64,000 nucleotides of DNA from Patescibacteria group bacterium (GCA_023474215.1 JAMCYI010000011.1:16739-80738), one strand, 5' to 3'. Shown: positions 6,217 to 61,986, counted from the stretch's first letter. Notes: a model not told the origin generated them from the sequence alone. A program made the numbers and translations.

Positions 6217-8475
6217 TTAGTGCAGTAATCCTCGCACTTTTACGTAGTAGGTGGTGTTGGCGTTAAGATTGGTTATGGGCTGCACGTAAGTGCCTGTCGC
6301 CGTAGAGTTTAGCACGTTGAGAGTATTCCATATCGACGGATTACTTGAAGTTGCATAGAGCACTTGGTCGTCTTTTGCATAGCTCTGCGGATTGGTCCAC
6401 TGCACCGTGAAGCTGTTCGATGTCACGCTTCCCGGCTGAATGGTGACGTTCGTCGGCCACGTGTTCGATGCCACAGGAGTGGTGGACGACGTCTGTACGC
6501 AGTAAAGCCCGTTTTGCGGATCGCTCACGTGGCTCGGATCGCAGAAAGAAATTTGCCCTATGACGTTCGCGGGAGTCGTCGCTCCCGAAAACGTGCCGGA
6601 AGCGAGAGCAAGCGATACGCCGGAAAGATTGACGTAGCCGTCAGCCGATCCAAGCGAGGGATCGGAAGTCAAAAATCTTGCATAGCCGGAAAGGGCGCCC
6701 GTACTCATGTTCACCGTCGGAAGATTGAAGCCCGGATACGTCGGATCCATGTCCCCTTCGTTGAACGAGAGCCAGCCGTAGCCGCAGCTCGGACGCGTGT
6801 CGCCTGAGAGGCATGAATTGCCGCTCCATGCATATCCCATTAGCCTCCCGGTATCGGGATTCAGGTAAACGCCGTAAGAAATCGGGCTCGTGCCGCTCAA
6901 GTTCGGCGAAACGGTATCGGAACTGAACTTCACCCAGCCGACGGCATTTGCCGCCGATGAGGGGATTGTGGAGCTGCCGGCCCACGCCCAGCCCTTCACG
7001 GGCGACATTTTGCTCAAATCGAGCGTTATCGAAGACCGGGGAACGATGATGACCGGCGTTGCATCGCCCGGGTTCAATTGATAGCTCGTTATACGGTACT
7101 GAACCGTCTGGCCGATGGTTGGCGAATCGATGTAGCAGTTGAGGGACTGAGCACCGGGACACTGCACGGTGAGTAATTGCCATGTCTGGCCGTTATCGGT
7201 GCTCTTTTGCGGATTGAACGATTGGAACTGGCCGGCCGAACTCCACAAGACCGGCACCGTGACGGTATTGTTCGAATTCACGTTTTGCACGACGGCCCGG
7301 AAGTTGCCGATCACATAGGCAGTTGTGATCGAGGTTTGTCCCGCAAATGAGCAGCCGTTCATGCTGCACGCCGATATGGAGTACGTGTAACCGGTCCCGT
7401 AGCTTGCCTGGTTATCCGTGAAACTCCTTGCGCTGCCGGAAACTGTTGCTAAAGGAACAAAACTTCCTTGGCCCGTTGCACGCTGCAAGACAAAGTGATC
7501 CACGTAGCTCGAGGGGCTCGCATCGCTCCACGTGAGCTTCACGGCAACCTGGCCCTGGTCGGGATGAAGGCCCGTACCGGTCGTCGTCGCGGAAAGTCCC
7601 GTCGGCGTGCGCGGTACGATGACGGTCGATACGCCGGACGCAATGGTCACCTGGTTCGAATCTTTCACCGTCACGCTGTTTCCGGAAACCGTATCGTCGG
7701 AAAACGGATGACAGTACAAATCCGTTTGGTAGTAGTTGATCGAGTAAATGCTGTCGCCGTTGAAAGAAACATTGCTGTCGGGAACGATGAGCGAGCCGCC
7801 GCTGAATATGCTGGATGCGCTGTATCTCGTGAGCCCCCATTGATTGGGGCCGCTTTTGCTGATCATGATGCCGAAGGTCTTGAGGTCCCGTCCGCCGAAT
7901 TCCGGATCGATCGGGATGTTGATACTGACCGAACTCCCGCCGGTCGTCGAAAACGTGGCGCCTTGCGGCCCGTTTTGATTGATCGACGGCAGGGCAGGCG
8001 TCGTTGCCGACGCTGAAACTTTGACGCCCGTTTGATAGCTGACCGGTTGCGATGAATCGACCGGCCATATCGAATAATTAATCTGCATATTGGGGTCGAG
8101 GCCGACGTAATTCGAGAGATTCGACGAACCCGGGGCGCACTGCTGGATATTAGTGAGGCCCGTGGCCGCCGTGCCATTCACGCTCGCTCCCAAAGCATCG
8201 TCGATGCAAACTTTCGGCGAGGTGTTTTGGGGATCATTCCCCAAATTGAACCCTTGCGAGGTATTGATGCTCCCCGATCGCGAAAACCAAAATGAAACGC
8301 TTGGTTGATTGGGGTTGCTTTGCCAGCCAAGTTCGATGGCGCAGGCCGAAACGGGAGTTGCCGTGAAATTGGAGATCGACGGCGTCGTTTGAGCTTTCAC
8401 CTCTGTGTGCAACCACAAGCCGGCCGCGAAGACGACGGCAAGGAGTATAAAAAATGAAATTTTTAACTTGCTCAT
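6217..8475 (-). CDS. large exported protein, S/T/N-rich (possible FN3-like repeats)
   Basis: ORF 6217..8499. Start at 8475 (MSKLKISFFILLAVVFAAG signal peptide) gives an ATGA stop/start overlap with the upstream gene. Last gene of a four-gene exported-protein operon. Confidence 0.5.
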   Translation of the reverse strand: MSKLKISFFILLAVVFAAGLWLHTEVKAQTTPSISNFTATPVSACAIELGWQSNPNQPSVSFWFSRSGSINTSQGFNLGNDPQNTSPKVCIDDALGASVNGTAATGLTNIQQCAPGSSNLSNYVGLDPNMQINYSIWPVDSSQPVSYQTGVKVSASATTPALPSINQNGPQGATFSTTGGSSVSINIPIDPEFGGRDLKTFGIMISKSGPNQWGLTRYSASSIFSGGSLIVPDSNVSFNGDSIYSINYYQTDLYCHPFSDDTVSGNSVTVKDSNQVTIASGVSTVIVPRTPTGLSATTTGTGLHPDQGQVAVKLTWSDASPSSYVDHFVLQRATGQGSFVPLATVSGSARSFTDNQASYGTGYTYSISACSMNGCSFAGQTSITTAYVIGNFRAVVQNVNSNNTVTVPVLWSSAGQFQSFNPQKSTDNGQTWQLLTVQCPGAQSLNCYIDSPTIGQTVQYRITSYQLNPGDATPVIIVPRSSITLDLSKMSPVKGWAWAGSSTIPSSAANAVGWVKFSSDTVSPNLSGTSPISYGVYLNPDTGRLMGYAWSGNSCLSGDTRPSCGYGWLSFNEGDMDPTYPGFNLPTVNMSTGALSGYARFLTSDPSLGSADGYVNLSGVSLALASGTFSGATTPANVIGQISFCDPSHVSDPQNGLYCVQTSSTTPVASNTWPTNVTIQPGSVTSNSFTVQWTNPQSYAKDDQVLYATSSNPSIWNTLNVLNSTATGTYVQPITNLNANTTYYVKVRGLLH

Positions 8476-14520: not shown

Positions 14521-14633
14521 GGGAAGGTTGCGTTCAATTTAACTTTATCAGATTTGCAAGGAAATAGGAACGGAAGTTTTCCCGACCCATTTCCCGAGTT
14601 CGATTCTCACTGACATTAAGGAATATAGAAGAC

Positions 14634-14683
14634 CCACTACAAGAGTGGGCTTTGTATTTTGTGCGGCCAGGGAGAATCGGCTT
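14634..14683 (-). repeat. about 50-bp direct repeat copy 1 (hairpin cccact/agtggg plus the tRNA-Gly 3'-terminal 18 nt); the second copy is 14812..14861
   Basis: acccactacaagagtgggctttgtattttgtgcggccagggagaatcg occurs twice. The second copy overlaps the 3' end of the intact tRNA-Gly. Confidence 0.8.
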
Positions 14684-14811
14684 CGCCTCTCGCTGCGCTC
14701 GGGCTAGCCACCGCCTCGCGTCCCTCGACAAGCTCGGGGCATGCTCCGGCGTTCGATTCCCCACGTGAGCCAAGCAGTTAGCTCACTCTGGCCAGGCATA
14801 GAAAATACAAA
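14684..14811 (-). repeat. tRNA-attached GC-rich element, copy A (T-type family)
   Basis: Reverse complement contains the conserved core GGGGAATCGAACGCCGGAGCATGCCCCGAGCTTGTCGAGGGACGCGAGGCGGTGGCTAGCCCGAGCGCAGCGAGAGGCGAAG. It lies between tRNA-Gly and the duplicated tRNA-Gly 3' end. Confidence 0.7.
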
Positions 14812-14841
14812 ACCCACTACAAGAGTGGGCTTTGTATTTTG

Positions 14842-14912
14842 TGCGGCCAGGGAGAATCGAACTCCCGTCTCATCCTTGGCAAGGACGTGTTCTACCACTA
14901 AACCATGACCGC
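14842..14912 (-). tRNA. tRNA-Gly (anticodon GCC)
   Basis: Manual cloverleaf: GCGGTCA acceptor, anticodon loop TTGCCAA, T-arm GGGAGTTCGATTCTCCC, 3' TGGCCGC-A. CCA is not encoded. Confidence 0.8.
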
Positions 14913-15152: not shown

Positions 15153-15236
15153 GTGCCCGGAGTCGGACTCGGACCGACACGCCCTTGCGGGCAACAGATC
15201 TTAAGTCTGTCGCGGCTGCCAATTACGCCATCCGGG
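15153..15236 (-). tRNA. tRNA-Leu (anticodon TAA), class II with long variable arm
   Basis: GCCCGGA acceptor, anticodon stem ACAGA/TCTGT with loop CTTAAGA, variable arm GCCC-GCAA-GGGC, T-arm GTCGG-TCCGAGT-CCGAC (C at position 55, unusual). Confidence 0.7.
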
Positions 15237-15273
15237 CAGTTTCAATTCAGTTTAACGGGTTACCGACTAAGTT

Positions 15274-16002
15274 TCAATGTTGTTTACTATTATGCGACTT
15301 ATGAATTTGATAGTCGGGTATCCTAGAAAGGAATATGGCTTTGCGCTCCAGTCCTATTGGGAACCCAGGATAATACATATAGCGCAATAACTCATCGGAA
15401 TCTTTCATCCCATACCCCAACTTCAAAGAGGCGCCATTATTAAACACACCCAGCGCTTTCAATGGGAGATTGATTTCTTTCTTAAGGATGAACATAAGCT
15501 CTTCGAGAAACTTTCTGCTACCTGACGTAAAATTGGTCCTTAATTCACGAGCAGGTCGACCGTCCTTTGTTCTAATATACTCAACGAAGAAAACACTACC
15601 GTCGCCATCAAAATAGCCCCTTATAAAATCTCTTAAATATTTTCTTGGCACACGAGGAAAGGTAATGGTTTTACTTTTACGCCTGAATCCACCAAGTTTA
15701 GTTAAAGATCCATAGAGATGTTTCGAGTGAAAACTAACATGCCAAGCATCGTCCCCCTTGCTCCTCCTCACTGGATTAGTAGAGCTCATCGCAGACCTTA
15801 TATCCATCAGAATGTGCTTATCATTAGAGCACAACACCACCCTATATGATCGCTCCTTCCTCATATAACCGTCCGCAAACCAGAAACCAAGAATGTAAGC
15901 CATGGACGATGACCACTTATCAAAGAACTTCTCATTGAGGGTATACTTTCTACTGTGATATTTGCCTTGGGTTAATATCTTCACAAAAATATTATATCTC
16001 AA
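15274..16002 (-). CDS. LAGLIDADG homing endonuclease (double-motif)
   Basis: Two LAGLIDADG motifs, ILGFWFADGY and RGYFDGDGSV, about 100 aa apart. The longest ORF starts at TTG. MAYILGFWFADGY (Met at about 15904) is an alternative start. Confidence 0.8.
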   Translation of the reverse strand: MRYNIFVKILTQGKYHSRKYTLNEKFFDKWSSSMAYILGFWFADGYMRKERSYRVVLCSNDKHILMDIRSAMSSTNPVRRSKGDDAWHVSFHSKHLYGSLTKLGGFRRKSKTITFPRVPRKYLRDFIRGYFDGDGSVFFVEYIRTKDGRPARELRTNFTSGSRKFLEELMFILKKEINLPLKALGVFNNGASLKLGYGMKDSDELLRYMYYPGFPIGLERKAIFLSRIPDYQIHKSHNSKQH

Positions 16003-16063
16003 TGAGGCTTAAATAGGAATCGAACCTAACAACTAATAAAAAGGTTTTCATCGTTGTCTTTTG

Positions 16064-16135
16064 AGGCGGCAGCCGGAGTCGGACCGGCGCATAGTGGTTT
16101 TGCAGACCACCGCGTTACCGTTTCGCCATGCCGCC
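16064..16135 (-). tRNA. tRNA-Cys (anticodon GCA)
   Basis: GGCGGCA acceptor, anticodon loop CTGCAAA, discriminator U73 as expected for Cys, T-arm GCCGG-TCCGACT-CCGGC (C55, as in the neighbouring tRNA-Leu). Confidence 0.7.
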
Positions 16136-17842: not shown

Positions 17843-17907
17843 AACACTGGTAAAATTACCAGATAAATGATATAAATACAAGCAGTTCGCGGATTTTTTC
17901 GGAGTGT

Positions 17908-17994
17908 GGAGGCGTGGCCGAGTGGCTTAAGGCAGCATCCTGCTAAGATGTTAGGGGAGCAATCCCCTCGAAGGTTCGAATCCTTCCGCCTCCG
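17908..17994 (+). tRNA. tRNA-Ser (anticodon GCT), class II
   Basis: GGAGGCG acceptor, anticodon loop CTGCTAA, long variable arm GGGGAGCAATCCCCTC, T-arm GAAGGTTCGAATCCTTC, 3' CGCCTCC-G. Confidence 0.8.
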
Positions 17995-17996
17995 CA

Positions 17997-18136
17997 GGAG
18001 CGCATGCACGTGAACCGCTTCACGTGCATGAAGATTCGAACGCCGGAGCGTGTCCCGAGCTTGTCGAGGGACGCGAGGCGGTGCCCAGCCCGAGGCGCAA
18101 AGCCGAGAGGCGAGGGAGAATCCTTCCGCCTCCGCA
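17997..18136 (+). repeat. tRNA-attached GC-rich element, copy B (T-type), ending in an 18-nt duplicate of the tRNA-Ser 3' end
   Basis: 12-bp palindromic hairpin catgcacgtgaa-ccgc-ttcacgtgcatg. Conserved core AAGATTCGAACGCCGGAGCGTGTCCCGAGCTTGTCGAGGGACGCGAGGCGGTGCCCAGCCCGAGGCGCAAAGCCGAGAGGCGAGGGAG. Then aatccttccgcctccgca at 18119..18136, identical to the tRNA-Ser 3' terminus. Confidence 0.75.
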
Positions 18137-18141
18137 TTGAT

Positions 18142-18213
18142 GGCCTTATCGTCTAACGGCTAGGACAACGCCCTTTCACGGCGTAAATCCGGGTTCGATT
18201 CCCGGTGAGGCTA
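18142..18213 (+). tRNA. tRNA-Glu (anticodon TTC)
   Basis: TCGTCTAACGGCTAGGACA D-region, anticodon stem ACGCC/GGCGT with loop CTTTCAC, T-arm CCGGGTTCGATTCCCGG. The acceptor stem needs G1:U72 and U6:G67 wobble pairs. Confidence 0.7.
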
Positions 18214-18233
18214 CAAAAAGTTATAATTGACTT

Positions 18234-18713
18234 ATGGACGACGAAAAGAAAATAACGTGGGAGGCGCCGGAATTCGATTATGTCGAGAAGAGCGTCGGAT
18301 GGTATTTCATTTTCGGCGTTGTGTTCTTTGCCATGATCGTCTTCGGATGGTTCAGCCGCAATTTTTTCTTTATGATCTTCCTCTTGATCGCCGGCATTCT
18401 CGTTGTTGCATTGAGCAACCGGAAACCGGAAAAGGTGAAATTCATCCTCGGAGAGGAAGCGTGTACCATCGGAGCTTCAAAGACGCCCTACCGCTATTCC
18501 GAAATGAAGGGATTCGCCATTGTGGAACGCGAACACCGGAATAACCTTCTTGTTTTCCGGCGAAACGTCGCGGTGAACCAATATTTGAAATTGCCGCTCG
18601 AGAAGGGTATAACAAGCGAGGTACGCAGCTTCTTAAAAGAGAAGCTCGCCGAAGGAAGTTACGAAGAAGGCCTCTTGGACGTTCTCATCGATCGAGTAGG
18701 TCTGGGGTCATAA
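18234..18713 (+). CDS. hypothetical membrane protein
   Basis: Two TM helices (WYFIFGVVFFAMIVFGWF, FFMIFLLIAGILVVAL). No recognisable domain. Confidence 0.4.
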   Translation: MDDEKKITWEAPEFDYVEKSVGWYFIFGVVFFAMIVFGWFSRNFFFMIFLLIAGILVVALSNRKPEKVKFILGEEACTIGASKTPYRYSEMKGFAIVEREHRNNLLVFRRNVAVNQYLKLPLEKGITSEVRSFLKEKLAEGSYEEGLLDVLIDRVGLGS

Positions 18714-18716
18714 TTT

Positions 18717-18788
18717 GCCCTCGTCGTCCAACGGACAGGACGCGAGATTGCGGATCTCGAAATAGAGGTTCGATTCCTCTCGAGGGCA
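18717..18788 (+). tRNA. tRNA-Arg (anticodon reads GCG, unusual)
   Basis: GCCCTCG acceptor (same as the tRNA-Arg CCT at 35709), anticodon stem CGAGA/TCTCG with loop TTGCGGA, T-arm AGAGGTTCGATTCCTCT, discriminator A. Confidence 0.65.
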
Positions 18789-18937
18789 CAATAAAGTAAA
18801 TTGAGAAGCGCGCAAACTGCTTTGCGCGCGTTTGGAATCGAACGCCGGAGCATGTCCCGACCTCGCCGAGGGACGCGAGGCGGTGCCCAGCCCGAGGCGC
18901 GAGCCGAGAGGCGAGGGAGATTCCTCTCGAGGGCACA
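18789..18937 (+). repeat. tRNA-attached GC-rich element, copy C (T-type), ending in an 18-nt duplicate of the tRNA-Arg 3' end
   Basis: Hairpin gcgcgcaaa-ctgc-tttgcgcgc. Core GGAATCGAACGCCGGAGCATGTCCCGACCTCGCCGAGGGACGCGAGGCGGTGCCCAGCCCGAGGCGCGAGCCGAGAGGCGAGGGAG. Then attcctctcgagggcaca at 18920..18937, which equals the tRNA-Arg 3' end. Confidence 0.75.
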
Positions 18938-18940
18938 AAA

Positions 18941-18980
18941 ATCCCGCCGGTCCATTGACCGGCGGGATCTTTTTGTATTC
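18941..18980 (+). terminator. Rho-independent terminator
   Basis: atcccgccggtc-cattg-accggcgggat followed by ctttttgtattc. Confidence 0.65.
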
Positions 18981-42685: not shown

Positions 42686-42828
42686 GGAAGGGGGATTGTT
42701 TTCGAGGAAGCTCTCGGAGCTCCGATTCGCTCGGTCCGCCGCAGAGGGGAACCGGAGCGAGAGCGCAGGGCGGCACTTGCCGCCGGAGCAAGTGAACGCC
42801 CGGTCCCGAGAAGACAATCTCCCTTCCG
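42686..42828 (-). ncRNA. structured GC-rich element, copy 1 (C-type family), closing stem plus U-run, upstream of leuS
   Basis: Outer stem ggaagggggattgttttcg / cgagaagacaatctcccttcc. Conserved internal blocks GAGGAAGCTCTCGGAG and GAGAGCGCAGGGCGGC...GGAGCAAGTGAACGCCCGGTCCCGAGAAG. On the minus strand the stem is followed by UUUUUUAUUAUU. Strand inferred. Confidence 0.55.
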
Positions 42829-61846: not shown

Positions 61847-61986
61847 GAAAAACCATGTTATTTTGAGGCAGCTCTCGGAGGCGAGCAAGCTTGGTTCCCC
61901 GGAAGGGATTGCGAGCCGAGAGCGCAGGGCGGCCTTGGCCGCTGGAGCCAAGGAACGTCCGGTGCCGAAAAGTAACATGGTTTTTT
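61847..61986 (-). ncRNA. structured GC-rich element, copy 2 (C-type family), closing stem plus U-run, between the H+-PPase gene and murD
   Basis: Outer stem aaaaccatgttattttg / cgaaaagtaacatggtttt. Same conserved blocks as copy 1 (GAGGCAGCTCTCGGAG; GAGAGCGCAGGGCGGCCTTGGCCGCTGGAGCCAAGGAACGTCCGGTGCCGAAAAG). Minus-strand reading ends in UUUUUCUU just before the murD RBS. Strand inferred. Confidence 0.55.

What the first reader, a model, noticed from the sequence alone, without database searches (positions are those of the whole stretch)
17997..18937. Host-specific covariation: each element's left end carries an inverted copy of its host tRNA T-loop
This is a separate observation from the integration footprint. 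The element's conserved 5' segment (GGAAUCGAAC in copies A and C, GAUUCGAAC in copy B) can form a 9-10-bp duplex with the T-arm (GGUUCGAUUCC or GGUUCGAAUCC) of the tRNA immediately upstream. If cotranscribed, the precursor could fold into an alternative structure that competes with T-arm formation, or that presents a tRNA-like end for RNase P or RNase Z. At the DNA level the same segment forms an inverted repeat flanking the tRNA 3' end plus hairpin. A transposase or recombinase acting on palindromic T-arm DNA could recognise that kind of structure.
Basis: partly seen in the sequence, partly recalled or inferred. Interest (0 to 1): 0.6.

Follow-up and report, generated by a model that had tools for sequence, protein, structure and literature searches.

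The report
Structured repeat element anchored on tRNA T-loops
The "inverted T-loop" is real: it is one strand of the closing helix of a previously undescribed ~100-nt structured, protein-less repeat element that sits behind tRNA and tmRNA genes of CPR bacteria, flanked by host-specific inverted and direct copies of that gene's 3' end.

Summary
Observation confirmed and generalised. The window holds three copies: A 14671-14764(-), B 18028-18125(+), C 18830-18926(+). About 85 more were found in CPR MAGs and metagenomes, behind tRNAs of 17 amino-acid families and behind tmRNA genes.

Every copy has the same order:
- tRNA, then trailer or terminator
- inverted copy of the acceptor 3' strand (b')
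- hairpin H1
- inverted copy of T-loop and T-stem G53..~64 (a', the finding)
- conserved three-way-junction core
- direct copy of the tRNA 3' end, from G57 to 1-3 nt past N73

a' matches its own host far better than shuffled hosts (0/10000 shuffles reach it; position 59 matches 91% vs 33%). It pairs with the duplicated T-loop half as helix P1 of a fold with strong covariation (33/36 pairs). The tRNA-sense strand is the one that folds.

No Rfam family, no neighbouring protein and no paper matches. A relative has an empty tRNA-Arg site where the window has copy C, so the element inserts or is lost precisely.

Best reading: a non-autonomous copy-and-paste element entering at C56|G57. The mechanism (target-primed copying plus snap-back) is inferred, not shown.

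The parts
17908..17995 (+). Host of copy B: tRNA-Ser(GCT). T arm 17970-17986; G53 = 17974, C56 = 17977, G57 = 17978.
   Evidence: ARAGORN, Rfam tRNA 56.3 bits, sequence
17978..17996 (+). Copy B, first copy of the direct repeat (G57..G73 + CA), inside the intact tRNA.
   Evidence: Identical 19 nt at 18118-18136
17997..18002 (+). Copy B, b': short inverted copy of the acceptor 3' strand (GGAGCG versus the reverse complement of CGCCTCC). It directly abuts the tRNA end, with GCA at the apex.
   Evidence: Sequence. Family-wide test of this arm. Pairs with 18128-18133 in the MFE fold of the element alone.
18003..18030 (+). Copy B, hairpin H1 (CATGCACGTGAA-CCGC-TTCACGTGCATG).
   Evidence: The stem changes by compensatory steps among the orthologous copies in L101, L001 and L097. 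The loop is CTGC in 37 of 63 copies.
18031..18041 (+). Copy B, a': the finding. AAGATTCGAAC; GATTCGAAC is the reverse complement of tRNA G53-C61. It is the 5' strand of helix P1, followed by GAAC.
18042..18117 (+). Copy B, conserved core. Helix Pb (CGCC/GGCG), internal loop, hairpin P2, GUG, helix P4 enclosing the long hairpin P3 with tandem G.A pairs. Ends ...GAGGGA.
   Evidence: Covariance-model hit 18028-18125, 79 bits. Covariation. MFE fold.
18118..18136 (+). Copy B, second copy of the direct repeat (G57..G73 + CA). Its first 8 nt are the 3' strand of P1. tRNA-Glu starts 5 nt later (18142).
18717..18789 (+). Host of copy C: tRNA-Arg(GCG). G53 = 18768, G57 = 18772. First repeat copy 18772-18791 (GATTCCTCTCGAGGGCACAA).
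18792..18807 (+). Copy C, filler TAAAGTAAATTGAGAA. It contains at most a remnant of the inverted acceptor arm (ATTG...AGAAG).
   Evidence: Sequence. Absent from the empty site in L101/L103.
18808..18829 (+). Copy C, hairpin H1 (GCGCGCAAA-CTGC-TTTGCGCGC).
   Evidence: Identical to the inner H1 of the tRNA-Ser copy of L097/L002
18834..18843 (+). Copy C, a': GGAATCGAAC, the reverse complement of tRNA-Arg G53-C62.
18844..18918 (+). Copy C, conserved core.
   Evidence: Covariance-model hit 18830-18926, 77.8 bits. 96% identical to the Ser-associated core of L002/L097.
18919..18938 (+). Copy C, second copy of the direct repeat (G57..A73 + CAA), followed by the native terminator at 18941-18968.
   Evidence: The downstream terminator is the one that follows the tRNA directly in the empty site.
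14841..14912 (-). Host of copy A: tRNA-Gly(GCC). G53 = 14862, G57 = 14858. Followed by a bidirectional terminator (~14833-14813).
14765..14798 (-). Copy A, b' (TGCCTGGCCAGAG, an imperfect inverted copy of CTCCCTGGCCGCA) and hairpin H1 (GTGAGCTAA-CTGC-TTGGCTCAC).
14751..14762 (-). Copy A, a': GGGGAATCGAAC, the reverse complement of GTTCGATTC(C)CC.
14679..14750 (-). Copy A, conserved core of the ...GGCGAAGCC subfamily.
   Evidence: Covariance-model hit 14671-14764, 77.9 bits. Inverted-repeat pairs I1/I2 with copies B and C.
14621..14678 (-). Copy A, second copy of the direct repeat. It is unusually long (48 nt exact, ~58 with mismatches) because it includes the trailer and terminator. In the orthologous L002 copy the repeat is only 19 nt.
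   Evidence: (family D3)
14571..14610 (-). Truncated copy of a second, unrelated-core family with the same architecture (GAGAATCGAAC-TCGGGAAATGGGTCGGG...). Its inverted arm again matches tRNA-Gly.
   Evidence: Full copy in L002. Further copies in L017 and L022.

Best explanation
What it is (shown).
The inverted T-loop copy (a') is the 5' strand of the closing helix P1 of a previously undescribed, protein-less element. The element is about 95-110 nt, or about 130-190 nt with its left arm. It lies directly 3' of tRNA and tmRNA genes in CPR/Patescibacteria, always in the gene's orientation.

Each copy reads, in order:
- the intact tRNA, then its trailer or terminator
- b', the reverse complement of ~61-73 plus trailer
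- hairpin H1 (usually a CTGC loop)
- a', the reverse complement of 53..~64, ending in GAAC
- a conserved three-way-junction core
- a direct copy of the tRNA from G57 to 1-3 nt past N73

P1 is a' paired with the first 8 nt of that direct copy. Because that strand is host sequence, a' has to covary with the host T-loop.

How it works (inferred, about 0.35-0.4 for this particular route).
It is a non-autonomous copy-and-paste element that enters between C56 and G57.
1. The bottom strand of a T-loop is nicked, or a fork breaks there. Its 3' end (...GGAWTC) pairs with the GAWUCC that follows the core in a donor transcript or single strand. It is then extended through the core. This makes the right junction precise and makes the right repeat target-derived.
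2. A second cut falls 1-3 nt beyond the tRNA end, or beyond its terminator. This leaves the target's 57-76 as a 3' tail. Filling it in keeps the tRNA intact and creates the direct repeat.
3. That tail snaps back, at the terminator hairpin when one is present, and is copied. This yields the host-specific inverted arm. The arm joins the new element copy through the shared T-stem/TCGAAC microhomology.
4. P1 and the rest of the fold are then retained, because the tRNA-sense RNA or single strand needs them for the next round or for some host-level role.

No enzyme has been identified for any step.
For: Anatomy is identical in 3 window copies and about 85 others.

Host specificity:
- a' matches its own host, 0/10000 shuffles.
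- b' matches its own host, 12.3 vs 9.4 +/- 0.23.

The fold is supported by covariation:
- 31 sequences: 85.7% of cells paired, against 68% when shuffled and 46% or less when slid; 28/36 pairs change on both sides.
- 91 distinct sequences: 87.3% paired; 33/36 pairs covary. The P1 pair at tRNA position 59 reads UA 37, AU 31, CG 9, GC 6. One Pb pair reads CG 88, AU 3.

The tRNA-sense strand is the structured one:
- Core folding energy is -34.1 vs -28.6 kcal/mol, lower in 67/71 copies.
- G.T 87 vs A.C 41, and G.A 281 vs C.T 32.

Insertion behaviour:
- L101/L103 have tRNA-Arg followed directly by its terminator. The window and L097 carry copy C, flanked by a 20-nt repeat.
- C's H1 and core are nearly identical to a tRNA-Ser copy of the same lineage.
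- Tandem and mixed arrays occur in L069, L012, L017, L022, L034 and L054.
- Decayed or truncated copies occur in L001.

The junction pattern fits target-primed copying:
- The right junction is fixed at G57.
- The repeat's far end is variable, mostly +1 to +3 past N73 but up to 60 nt including terminators.
- Copy C has filler at its left junction.

Snap-back signature:
- The palindrome apex sits at the terminator loop (L046, L089, L003, copy A).
- In L006 hairpin H1 is literally the tRNA's own end folded back: GAGCACAAAA-CTGC-TTTTGTGC.
- A second core family has a contiguous inverted arm covering the reverse complement of 53-72.

No neighbouring protein recurs. No Rfam family matches. No paper was found.
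Against: - No reverse transcriptase, nuclease or recombinase was found in the window or near the copies. Every enzymatic step is conjecture.
- In this family a' lies between two element-derived parts, H1 and the core. Either a' is donor-derived and matches only through target choice and retention on the same tRNA type, or extra template switches are needed.
- Left arms (b', H1, a') cluster by host tRNA type, while cores can be near-identical at different hosts within one metagenome. This fits lineages tied to one tRNA plus gene conversion of cores as well as it fits frequent retargeting.
- Orthologous copies keep the fold through compensatory changes. The right repeat stays identical to the tRNA in 39/55 copies, although cores diverge. 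That points to selection or gene conversion in place, possibly a host-level function.
- The empty site could also be a precise deletion between the direct repeats.
- The covariance-model alignment is fitted to the structure, and the search patterns fixed parts of the core.
Confidence: 0.5

Rival explanations
1. Host-level cis-acting RNA. The element is a structured RNA module of tRNA operons. Its left arm, the tRNA 3' end and the duplicated 3' end form a three-strand switch. The module either closes on itself or captures the tRNA's T-arm and acceptor strand, and so affects folding, RNase P/Z processing, stability or quality control of the neighbouring tRNA.
For: - The alternative fold is the predicted MFE of the co-transcripts of B and C.
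- B lies between tRNA-Ser and tRNA-Glu with no predicted terminator.
- The B insertion is shared by relatives whose neighbouring protein is only 78% identical. It keeps its fold by compensatory change while the right repeat stays identical to the tRNA.
- The tRNA-sense strand is the structured one.
Against: - Only 3 of the 11 tRNA genes in the window carry the element, and host identity is patchy across lineages.
- Presence/absence differs at tRNA-Arg between relatives.
- Tandem arrays and truncated or decayed copies exist.
- Terminator-like hairpins separate the tRNA from the element in many copies.
- A fold that disrupts the tRNA would be costly.
Confidence: 0.2
2. Recombination of a unit that carries its own tRNA 3' end. 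The mobile unit is [G57-N73, trailer, inverted arm, H1, a', core]. As a circle, a folded single strand or incoming transforming DNA, it recombines with the cognate tRNA gene. This could be through the 17-60 nt of shared 3'-end sequence (Campbell-type or homology-facilitated), or through a trans-acting tyrosine recombinase that reads the folded a.a' stem as a mimic of double-stranded T-arm DNA, as in CTX-phi or integron attC sites. New tRNA specificities would arise rarely.
For: - The repeat has a fixed left boundary at G57 and a variable right boundary, as expected if it equals the extent of shared homology.
- Arrays repeat the whole unit (L034 60-nt repeat, L054, L069).
- Left arms cluster by host tRNA type, for example three tRNA-Ala isoacceptor genes with the same arm.
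- In L017 the inner repeat carries a foreign trailer.
- Integrases commonly use the T-loop-to-3'-end sublocation, and tandem arrays at tmRNA genes are known (PMC3146451).
Against: - No integrase lies in the window or recurs near copies.
- The same core occurs behind at least 17 tRNA families plus tmRNA.
- Copy C derives from a tRNA-Ser copy yet has an Arg-specific repeat. A unit carrying a Ser 3' end cannot produce that by recombination alone.
- 17-20 nt is short for RecA-mediated recombination.
Confidence: 0.18
3. Programmable guide. a' and b' are guide segments, in RNA or single-stranded DNA, that base-pair with the target's T-loop and acceptor strand. They would direct a trans-acting enzyme to C56|G57. 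Candidate enzyme types are an HUH transposase of the IS200/IS605 or IS91 kind, an IS110-type recombinase with a bridge-like RNA, or a TnpB/IscB-like nuclease.
For: - Two host-complementary segments flank a scaffold hairpin.
- Host specificity declines gradually from position 57 to 65, as expected for pairing-based target choice.
- The junction lies right after GTTC, the target tetranucleotide of IS801/IS1294 and a frequent target of IS91. Those elements have subterminal palindromes at both ends, and about 170 bp of ends suffices for IS91 transposition.
Against: - No such enzyme was found.
- IS91-family elements make no target duplication and do not carry host-specific ends.
- Cores 93-96% identical carry entirely different b' arms. 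Up to ~20 guide positions would have to change while the core stays fixed, which point mutation cannot do.
- An RNA-guided nuclease aimed at 57-73 would also hit the intact tRNA gene next door.
Confidence: 0.08
4. Chance, or decayed antisense tRNA fragments with no common origin.
For: GGTTCGAATCC-like words are common near tRNA genes on both strands (family D2 and pair I3).
Against: - 100 covariance-model hits with one conserved architecture and orientation.
- Permutation tests and covariation.
- The 13 chance pattern hits in GC-rich coding DNA and one in a viral contig lack the architecture. The 13 were excluded by eye, and the viral hit scores nothing with the model.
Confidence: 0.01

Closest known systems
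Integrase-borne islands and prophages that integrate into the T-loop-to-3'-end sublocation of tRNA/tmRNA genes, including tandem arrays such as the Dehalococcoides ssrA islands
   Same: - Targets any gene with a T arm, tmRNA included.
- The insertion boundary lies in the T-loop.
- The gene stays intact, and a direct repeat of its 3' end marks the far side.
- Tandem arrays share that repeat (PMC3146451).
   Different: - 100-190 nt with no integrase or cargo.
- One conserved core behind at least 17 tRNA families.
- Carries host-specific inverted copies of the 3' end and a covarying three-way-junction fold, neither of which att sites have.
Bacterial MITEs and related small repeats (Correia, RUP, REP/REPIN, RPE, IS200/IS605-derived PATEs)
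   Same: Small, non-coding, multi-copy and structured, with inverted repeats at the ends and a flanking direct repeat. Some, such as Rickettsia RPE, sit in RNA genes (own knowledge; review PMC3184786).
   Different: - The terminal inverted repeats here are made of the host gene's own sequence and differ from copy to copy.
- The duplication is 18-20 nt or more, with one fixed boundary.
- The target is a specific position of tRNA genes.
- No parent insertion sequence was found.
IS91 family rolling-circle elements (IS91, IS801, IS1294)
   Same: - Insertion directly 3' of GTTC/CTTG.
- Subterminal palindromes at both ends.
- About 170 bp of ends suffices for transposition.
   Different: - IS91-type elements make no target duplication.
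- They use any GTTC, encode or need an HUH TnpA, and have fixed ends.
- Here all copies lie in T-loops and the ends are host-specific. No HUH gene was seen.
Target-primed reverse transcription elements (LINE/SINE, R2) and hairpin self-priming by reverse transcriptases
   Same: - Precise 3' junction and variable 5' junction with filler.
- Variable-length target duplication with one fixed edge.
- Non-autonomous RNA-derived copies.
- Inverted segments from aberrant priming (own knowledge).
   Different: This type of element is not known in bacteria. No RT was found and there is no poly(A) or 3' tail signal. The inverted segments here are target-derived and systematic.
Folded single-strand recombination sites (integron attC, CTX-phi attP)
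   Same: Two inverted arms fold to mimic a double-stranded target site. Function depends on structure rather than sequence, and only one strand is active (own knowledge).
   Different: Those sites have conserved R/L boxes or dif-like arms and known recombinases (IntI, XerCD). Here the stem is host tRNA sequence and no recombinase is linked to it.
Type I hammerhead and other three-way-junction self-cleaving ribozymes; internal guide sequences of group I introns
   Same: - Same topology: an open helix formed by the 5' and 3' ends, two hairpin arms, and conserved junction nucleotides.
- The junction with the host-derived strand sits where a hammerhead cleaves.
- P1 behaves like a guide-substrate helix.
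   Different: The junction strands are (C)GAA, GUG and (C)GA, not CUGANGA/GAAA/UH. No ribozyme family matched even at E <= 10. Cleavage was not tested.

Membership tests
tRNA-targeting integrative element (tyrosine/serine integrase) | Encodes or neighbours an integrase | tested here: not met
   No integrase among ~50 window ORFs. No protein family recurs in more than 7 of ~83 loci, and those are syntenic housekeeping genes.
tRNA-targeting integrative element (tyrosine/serine integrase) | Direct repeat of the tRNA 3' part at both ends (attL/attR), with the gene left intact | tested here: met
   The repeat starts at G57 and ends 1-3 nt past N73. It is perfect over 57-73 in 39/55 copies.
tRNA-targeting integrative element (tyrosine/serine integrase) | One element lineage uses one cognate tRNA (the attP carries that tRNA's 3' end) | tested here: inconclusive
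   Left arms cluster by host type. But cores 93-96% identical occur behind different tRNAs, and copy C (Arg) derives from a Ser copy.
MITE / non-autonomous DNA transposon | Element-specific terminal inverted repeats shared by all copies | tested here: not met
   The inverted termini are host tRNA sequence and differ with the host.
MITE / non-autonomous DNA transposon | Short target-site duplication of fixed length | tested here: not met
   The duplication is 14-60 nt, mostly 18-21, with only the left boundary fixed.
MITE / non-autonomous DNA transposon | A related autonomous element with the same ends | tested here: not met
   None among 100 hits. The longest spans from GAAC to the repeat are 169 nt, with no ORF. 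Whole genomes were not searched.
IS91 family | Insertion 3' of GTTC/CTTG | tested here: met
   The right repeat starts at G57, directly after G53-T-T-C56.
IS91 family | No target duplication; HUH TnpA | tested here: not met
   An 18-20 nt duplication is present and no HUH gene was found.
IS200/IS605 (and PATE derivatives) | Y1 TnpA and/or TnpB; fixed LE/RE hairpins; no duplication | tested here: not met
   No such ORF was found and no Rfam IS605/HEARO-type RNA matched. A duplication is present.
Known self-cleaving ribozymes (hammerhead, twister, twister-sister, pistol, hatchet, HDV-like, hairpin) | Match to the family's covariance model or conserved core | tested here: not met
   Rfam 15 at the gathering threshold and at E <= 10 gives only tRNAs and noise over 17880-18980.
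Known self-cleaving ribozymes (hammerhead, twister, twister-sister, pistol, hatchet, HDV-like, hairpin) | Site-specific self-cleavage | not testable with these tools
   Needs in vitro transcription and cleavage assays.
Retroelement using target-primed reverse transcription | Reverse transcriptase in cis or in trans | tested here: not met
   No RT domain in the window and none recurring near copies. Genome-wide presence was not testable.
Retroelement using target-primed reverse transcription | Precise 3' junction, variable 5' junction, variable target duplication | tested here: met
Archaeal-type tRNA intron / split or permuted tRNA | The tRNA gene is interrupted and needs splicing (bulge-helix-bulge motif) | tested here: not met
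   The upstream tRNA is complete and scores 56-64 bits without splicing.

The most novel reading that the evidence does not exclude
The core is a catalytic or guide RNA that needs no element-encoded protein. Its internal guides a' and b' pair with the 3' half of a tRNA or tRNA gene. The three-way junction then cuts or joins exactly at C56|G57.

This would make it one of two things:
- the first small ribozyme-type or RNA-templated mobile element that retargets itself by copying its target;
- a device that releases spare tRNA 3' halves (G57-N73) for repair of T-loop-cleaved tRNAs.
Probability: 0.12. Interest if true: 0.95.

Novelty: categorically new. Interest (0 to 1): 0.8.

Why it matters
- If this is a mobile element, it is a new way for selfish DNA or RNA to colonise essential genes without damaging them. 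It lands in the most conserved 10 nt of every tRNA. It rebuilds the gene's 3' end and carries termini that are copied from the target, not fixed.
- That bears on three things: how tRNA genes became universal integration sites, how palindromes and direct-inverted-direct triplications arise in bacteria, and whether RNA-templated or target-primed copying operates in the tiny genomes of CPR bacteria.
- If it is instead a host RNA device, it is a new, widespread structured RNA class of an uncultured radiation, wired to tRNA and tmRNA maturation.
- In practice, the covariance model lets annotators recognise these repeats. It also explains spurious partial tRNA 3' fragments next to tRNA genes in CPR MAGs.

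Tried and rejected
- **Rfam.** The whole window at gathering scores, and 17880-18980 at E <= 10, gave only tRNAs and noise.
- **Cis-encoded protein.** All ORFs of 90 aa or more from about 83 loci were clustered. Nothing recurs beyond local synteny.
- **Enzymes in the window.** Pfam on about 50 ORFs found no integrase, transposase, RT or HUH protein, only one LAGLIDADG ORF.
  - Its 4-nt 3'-overhang geometry would neatly explain why a' ends in GAAC and the repeat starts at G57.
  - But homologues lie in only 3 other loci, so I do not build on it.
- **Phage vector.** The one IMG/VR pattern hit is chance: no covariance-model hit and no tRNA.
- **Literature.** Sequence and concept searches found nothing.
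- **Hammerhead, type I.** The topology fits but the core nucleotides do not.
- **Integron attC.** The GTTRRRY/RYYYAAC boxes do not fit GTTCGAA/TTCGAAC, and the junction is at 56|57, not G|TT.
- **Copy of mature tRNA (retroviral PBS-like, m1A58 stop).** The repeat carries the genomic CA/CAA, not CCA, and starts at 57, not 59.
- **Is H1's stem copied from the host trailer?** The test (9.0 vs 7.7 +/- 0.24) is inflated by short-spacer copies in which H1 overlaps the test window. It is inconclusive, except for L006, where H1 clearly is the tRNA end folded back.
- **Near-identical cores at different hosts as proof of frequent retargeting.** Weakened, because such pairs often come from one metagenome and left arms follow host type. 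Only the Ser-to-Arg case (copy C) stands.
- **Simple tandem-inversion-duplication by snap-back alone.** This does not explain the conserved core or the stop at G53.
Full report
**1. Checking the observation.**
The window has 11 tRNA genes. Three of them are followed by a shared ~85-nt GC-rich sequence: tRNA-Gly(GCC) 14841-14912(-), tRNA-Ser(GCT) 17908-17995(+) and tRNA-Arg(GCG) 18717-18789(+).

- GATTCGAAC at 18033-18041 (copy B)
- GGAATCGAAC at 18834-18843 (copy C)
- GGGGAATCGAAC at 14762-14751 (copy A)

These are the reverse complements of G53-C61/62 of the adjacent tRNA (GTTCGAATC, GTTCGATTCC, GTTCGATTC). So the A/T difference at tRNA position 59 is mirrored.

At the right edge each copy ends in a direct repeat of the tRNA from G57 to 2-3 nt past the discriminator:
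- B: 18118-18136
- C: 18919-18938
- A: 14678 downward, here 48 nt or more because it includes the terminator

Three copies with one informative base are not statistics, so I collected more.

**2. The family.**
A two-anchor pattern from the core found 4 loci in species-representative genomes. These are Saccharibacteria and unclassified MAGs. It found 92 loci in metagenomes. Thirteen of the 92 are chance hits in GC-rich coding DNA.

The true copies always lie 25-225 nt downstream of, and in the same orientation as, a gene with a T arm:
- tRNAs for Gly, Ser, Arg, Lys, Val, Ala, Tyr, Pro, Leu, Glu, Ile, Gln, His, Cys, Thr, Asp and Met
- tmRNA genes

A covariance model built from 31 copies finds exactly three copies in the window: 14671-14764(-), 18028-18125(+) and 18830-18926(+), at 78-79 bits. 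It finds 100 copies in the fetched loci.

**3. The covariation is real.**
I used 75 non-redundant copies.
- The inverted segment matches its own host at 6.84 of the 9 positions 57-65. Shuffled hosts give 5.08 +/- 0.12, and 0 of 10000 shuffles reach the observed value.
- Own host versus other hosts, per position: 57 (G/A) is .85/.56; 59 is .91/.33; 63 is .76/.43; 64 is .56/.27. At 65 the signal is gone.
- Runs of 13-14 exact nucleotides occur, for example L046 Tyr GTTCGAGTCCCTC, L033 Pro GTTCAATTCCCAG and L085 Ile GTTCGAGTCCAAG.

**4.
(a) Just upstream of the hairpin lies a second host-specific inverted segment. It is the reverse complement of ~61-73 plus trailer.
- Its score against its own host is 12.3, against 9.40 +/- 0.23 for shuffled hosts.
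- Examples: L046 ATTTGTGCGCCGA, L089 AAGCTCCCCCG, L054 GCGCAGGGGAG.
- Together with the tRNA end it forms a long palindrome. The apex is the terminator loop, or just 3-7 nt where no terminator is present (copies B and C).

(b) The hairpin H1 has a covarying stem and a CTGC loop in 37/63 copies. In L006, H1 is the tRNA's own end folded back: GAGCACAAAA-CTGC-TTTTGTGC.

(c) The two inverted arms overlap. Both contain the complement of the T-stem 3' strand.

(d) The direct repeat starts at G57 in both core subfamilies (...GAGGGA|GAWTCC and ...GAAGCC|GAWTC).
- It is perfect over 57-73 in 39/55 copies.
- It usually ends 1-3 nt past N73, and occasionally runs up to 60 nt.

(e) Other core families share the architecture. 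One (GGGGTCGGGRAAAC...CCCCGTGG...) follows copy A in truncated form at 14610-14571. It is complete in L002, L017 and L022, with a contiguous inverted arm and no H1. It also occurs inverted, between the tRNA and the first family's arm, in L018, L027 and L054. A third family is in L069.

(f) Tandem and mixed arrays occur in L069, L012, L017, L022, L034 and L054.

**5. A conserved fold, read on the tRNA-sense strand.**
The fold, 5' to 3', is:
- P1: a' paired with the first 8 nt of the right repeat
- (C)GAA
- Pb: CGCC/GGCG, plus an internal loop, plus hairpin P2
- GUG
- P4 enclosing the long hairpin P3
- (C)GA

Covariation support:
- On 31 hand-checked sequences, 85.7% of cells pair. The figure is 68% when shuffled and 46% or less when the partner is slid. 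28/36 pairs change on both sides.
- On 91 distinct model-aligned sequences, 87.3% pair and 33/36 pairs covary.
- The P1 pair at position 59 reads UA 37, AU 31, CG 9, GC 6. One Pb pair reads CG 88, AU 3.

Strand asymmetry:
- The core folds at -34.1 kcal/mol on the tRNA-sense strand and -28.6 on the other, lower in 67/71 copies.
- Non-canonical pairs are G.T 87 vs A.C 41 and G.A 281 vs C.T 32, including conserved tandem G.A in P3.

So the finding is the closing helix of a structured RNA or single strand. One strand of that helix is host sequence, so the other strand must covary with the host.

Caveats: the model alignment leans towards the structure, and my search patterns fixed part of Pb.

**6. 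Is it mobile?**
- The neighbouring 159-aa ORF (18234-18710) has homologues at 99% and 78% identity.
- The 78% relative (L101/L103) has the tRNA-Ser copy. Its tRNA-Arg is followed directly by CAAAGAGAAATCCCGCC and the terminator, so that site is empty.
- The 99% relative (L097) has copy C, as the window does.
- C's H1 is identical to the inner H1 of L097's Ser copy, and the cores differ at 3 of ~80 positions. C's repeat and a' are Arg-type, and its b' is almost absent.
- Decayed copies exist. The L001 Gly copy has lost its repeat, and the L001 Arg locus holds only a core fragment plus a foreign tRNA-Arg 3' piece.

Together with the arrays and the patchy host range, this says the element proliferates by insertion. 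A precise deletion between the repeats cannot be excluded for any single empty site.

Against a purely selfish, neutral repeat:
- The Ser copy has persisted across considerable divergence.
- It kept P2 by compensatory change (GTCCC/GGGAC to GTTCC/GGAAC).
- Its right repeat stayed identical to the tRNA while P3 was remodelled.

**7. No known partner.**
- Rfam 15 has nothing, even at E <= 10.
- No protein recurs next to the copies.
- About 50 window ORFs include no integrase, transposase, RT or HUH protein.
- IMG/VR has no copy.
- Full-text searches for the sequence and the concept found nothing.

**8. Mechanism (inference).**
Any model has to explain the following:
- a precise junction at C56|G57
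- a target duplication with one fixed and one variable edge
- filler at the left junction of a young copy
- host-specific inverted arms whose palindrome turns at the terminator
- an intact tRNA
- a conserved sense-strand fold

I favour target-primed copying plus snap-back:
1. The T-loop's bottom strand, nicked at 56|57, pairs with the GAWUCC that follows the core in a donor RNA or single strand. It then primes a copy of the core.
2. A second cut just past the tRNA, or past its terminator, leaves 57-76 as a 3' tail. Filling it in restores the gene and creates the repeat.
3. The tail's snap-back, easiest at a terminator hairpin, yields the inverted arm.
4. That arm joins the new copy through T-stem/TCGAAC microhomology.

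Support and weaknesses:
- This is the topology of LINE/SINE insertion and of hairpin self-priming (own knowledge). It fits the second family and L006 directly.
- For the main family a' sits between H1 and the core. So a' may be donor-derived and host-matched through pairing-based target choice, which would fit the gradual decline from 57 to 65. Otherwise it must be corrected afterwards.
- No enzyme is known for any step.

I give about 0.5 to "non-autonomous insertional element whose P1 is the finding", and about 0.35-0.4 to this particular route.

Rivals, with my weights:
- host cis-acting RNA switch, 0.2. The alternative fold is the predicted MFE of the co-transcripts, and the element alone gives the consensus fold.
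- recombination of a unit that carries its own tRNA 3' end, 0.18
- programmable guide for an HUH, DEDD or TnpB-type enzyme, 0.08. IS91-family elements do insert after GTTC but make no duplication.
- chance, 0.01

**9. Comparison and novelty.**
The element works most like a cross between two known kinds:
- a tRNA-targeting integrative element: same sublocation, 3'-end repeat and arrays (PMC3146451)
- a MITE/SINE: tiny, non-coding, structured

It fails the defining tests of each family I considered: integrase, fixed terminal repeats, fixed-length duplication, HUH enzyme, ribozyme models, RT.

I know of no described element with termini copied from its target in both orientations around a conserved three-way junction. 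I therefore rate it categorically new, with the caveat that its mechanism and even its molecule (RNA versus single-stranded DNA) are unproven.

Noticed in passing
window 15277-16002 (-), with 16003-16033 (-): A free-standing LAGLIDADG_3 ORF (242 aa, Pfam E = 1.5e-10) sits between tRNA-Cys and tRNA-Leu(TAA). In the relative L001 these two tRNA genes are 9 nt apart, so the ORF is an insertion. It is preceded by a foreign-looking tRNA 3' fragment (AGGTTCGATTCCTATTTAAGCCTCA) that does not match the adjacent tRNA-Cys. Homologues lie in L101/L102 and L041 only.
   Followed up: partly
window 14571-14610 (-); L002 3900-4030 (-); L017, L022; inverted in L018, L027, L054: A second family with an unrelated core (GGGGTCGGGRAAAC...CCCCGTGGMGGARGTC...AACCGYGGGTT) has the same inverted-arm / core / direct-repeat architecture behind tRNAs. 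It sometimes stands in tandem with the first family and sometimes in the opposite orientation. A third family in L069 carries the H1-like hairpin after the inverted T-loop.
   Followed up: partly
window 16063-16135 (-) and 15153-15237 (-): tRNA-Cys and tRNA-Leu(TAA) have T-loops TCCGACT and TCCGAGT, with C instead of T at position 55. The window's tRNA-Cys differs throughout from that of the close relative L001 (acceptor GGCGGCA versus GGCCTAG), as if the gene had been replaced.
   Followed up: no
window, 3' ends of the tRNA genes (e.g. 17994-17996, 18213-18217, 18788-18791, 14842-14838): None of the tRNA genes I looked at encodes CCA. The discriminator is followed by CA, CAA or CAAA in nearly every case, here and in the related loci.
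   Followed up: no
window 42758-42813 and 61917-61972: A 56-nt GC-rich repeat, 82% identical (CGAGAGCGCAGGGCGGCACTTGCCGCCGGAGCAAGTGAACGCCCGGTCCCGAGAAG), lies in two intergenic regions. Both are just upstream of minus-strand genes (LeuRS and a Mur ligase). It has internal hairpin potential and no Rfam match.
   Followed up: no
L001 3790-3975 (-): tRNA-Arg(GCG) of this relative is followed by a 12-nt remnant of an element core (GCATGTGCCGTA). After that comes the 3' two-thirds of a different tRNA-Arg(GCG), with another acceptor and T stem, and then the native terminator. This is a scar of an older or different event at the site that carries copy C in the window.
   Followed up: partly
L006 ~6250-6290 (-): Here the element's hairpin H1 is formed by the tRNA's own last bases plus trailer and their inverted copy (GAGCACAAAA-CTGC-TTTTGTGC). 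This suggests H1 began as a fold-back of a tRNA end capped by CTGC.
   Followed up: partly
L083, L061, L071 (GGATGAGAAC); L053/L060/L095 (TGATTAGAAC); L026, L072, L091 (..GGAGAAC): In a subset of copies the loop-proximal 2-3 bases of the inverted T-loop are replaced (TCG to GAG or TAG). In L083 the T-stem complement remains host-specific, so P1 is shifted outward.
   Followed up: no
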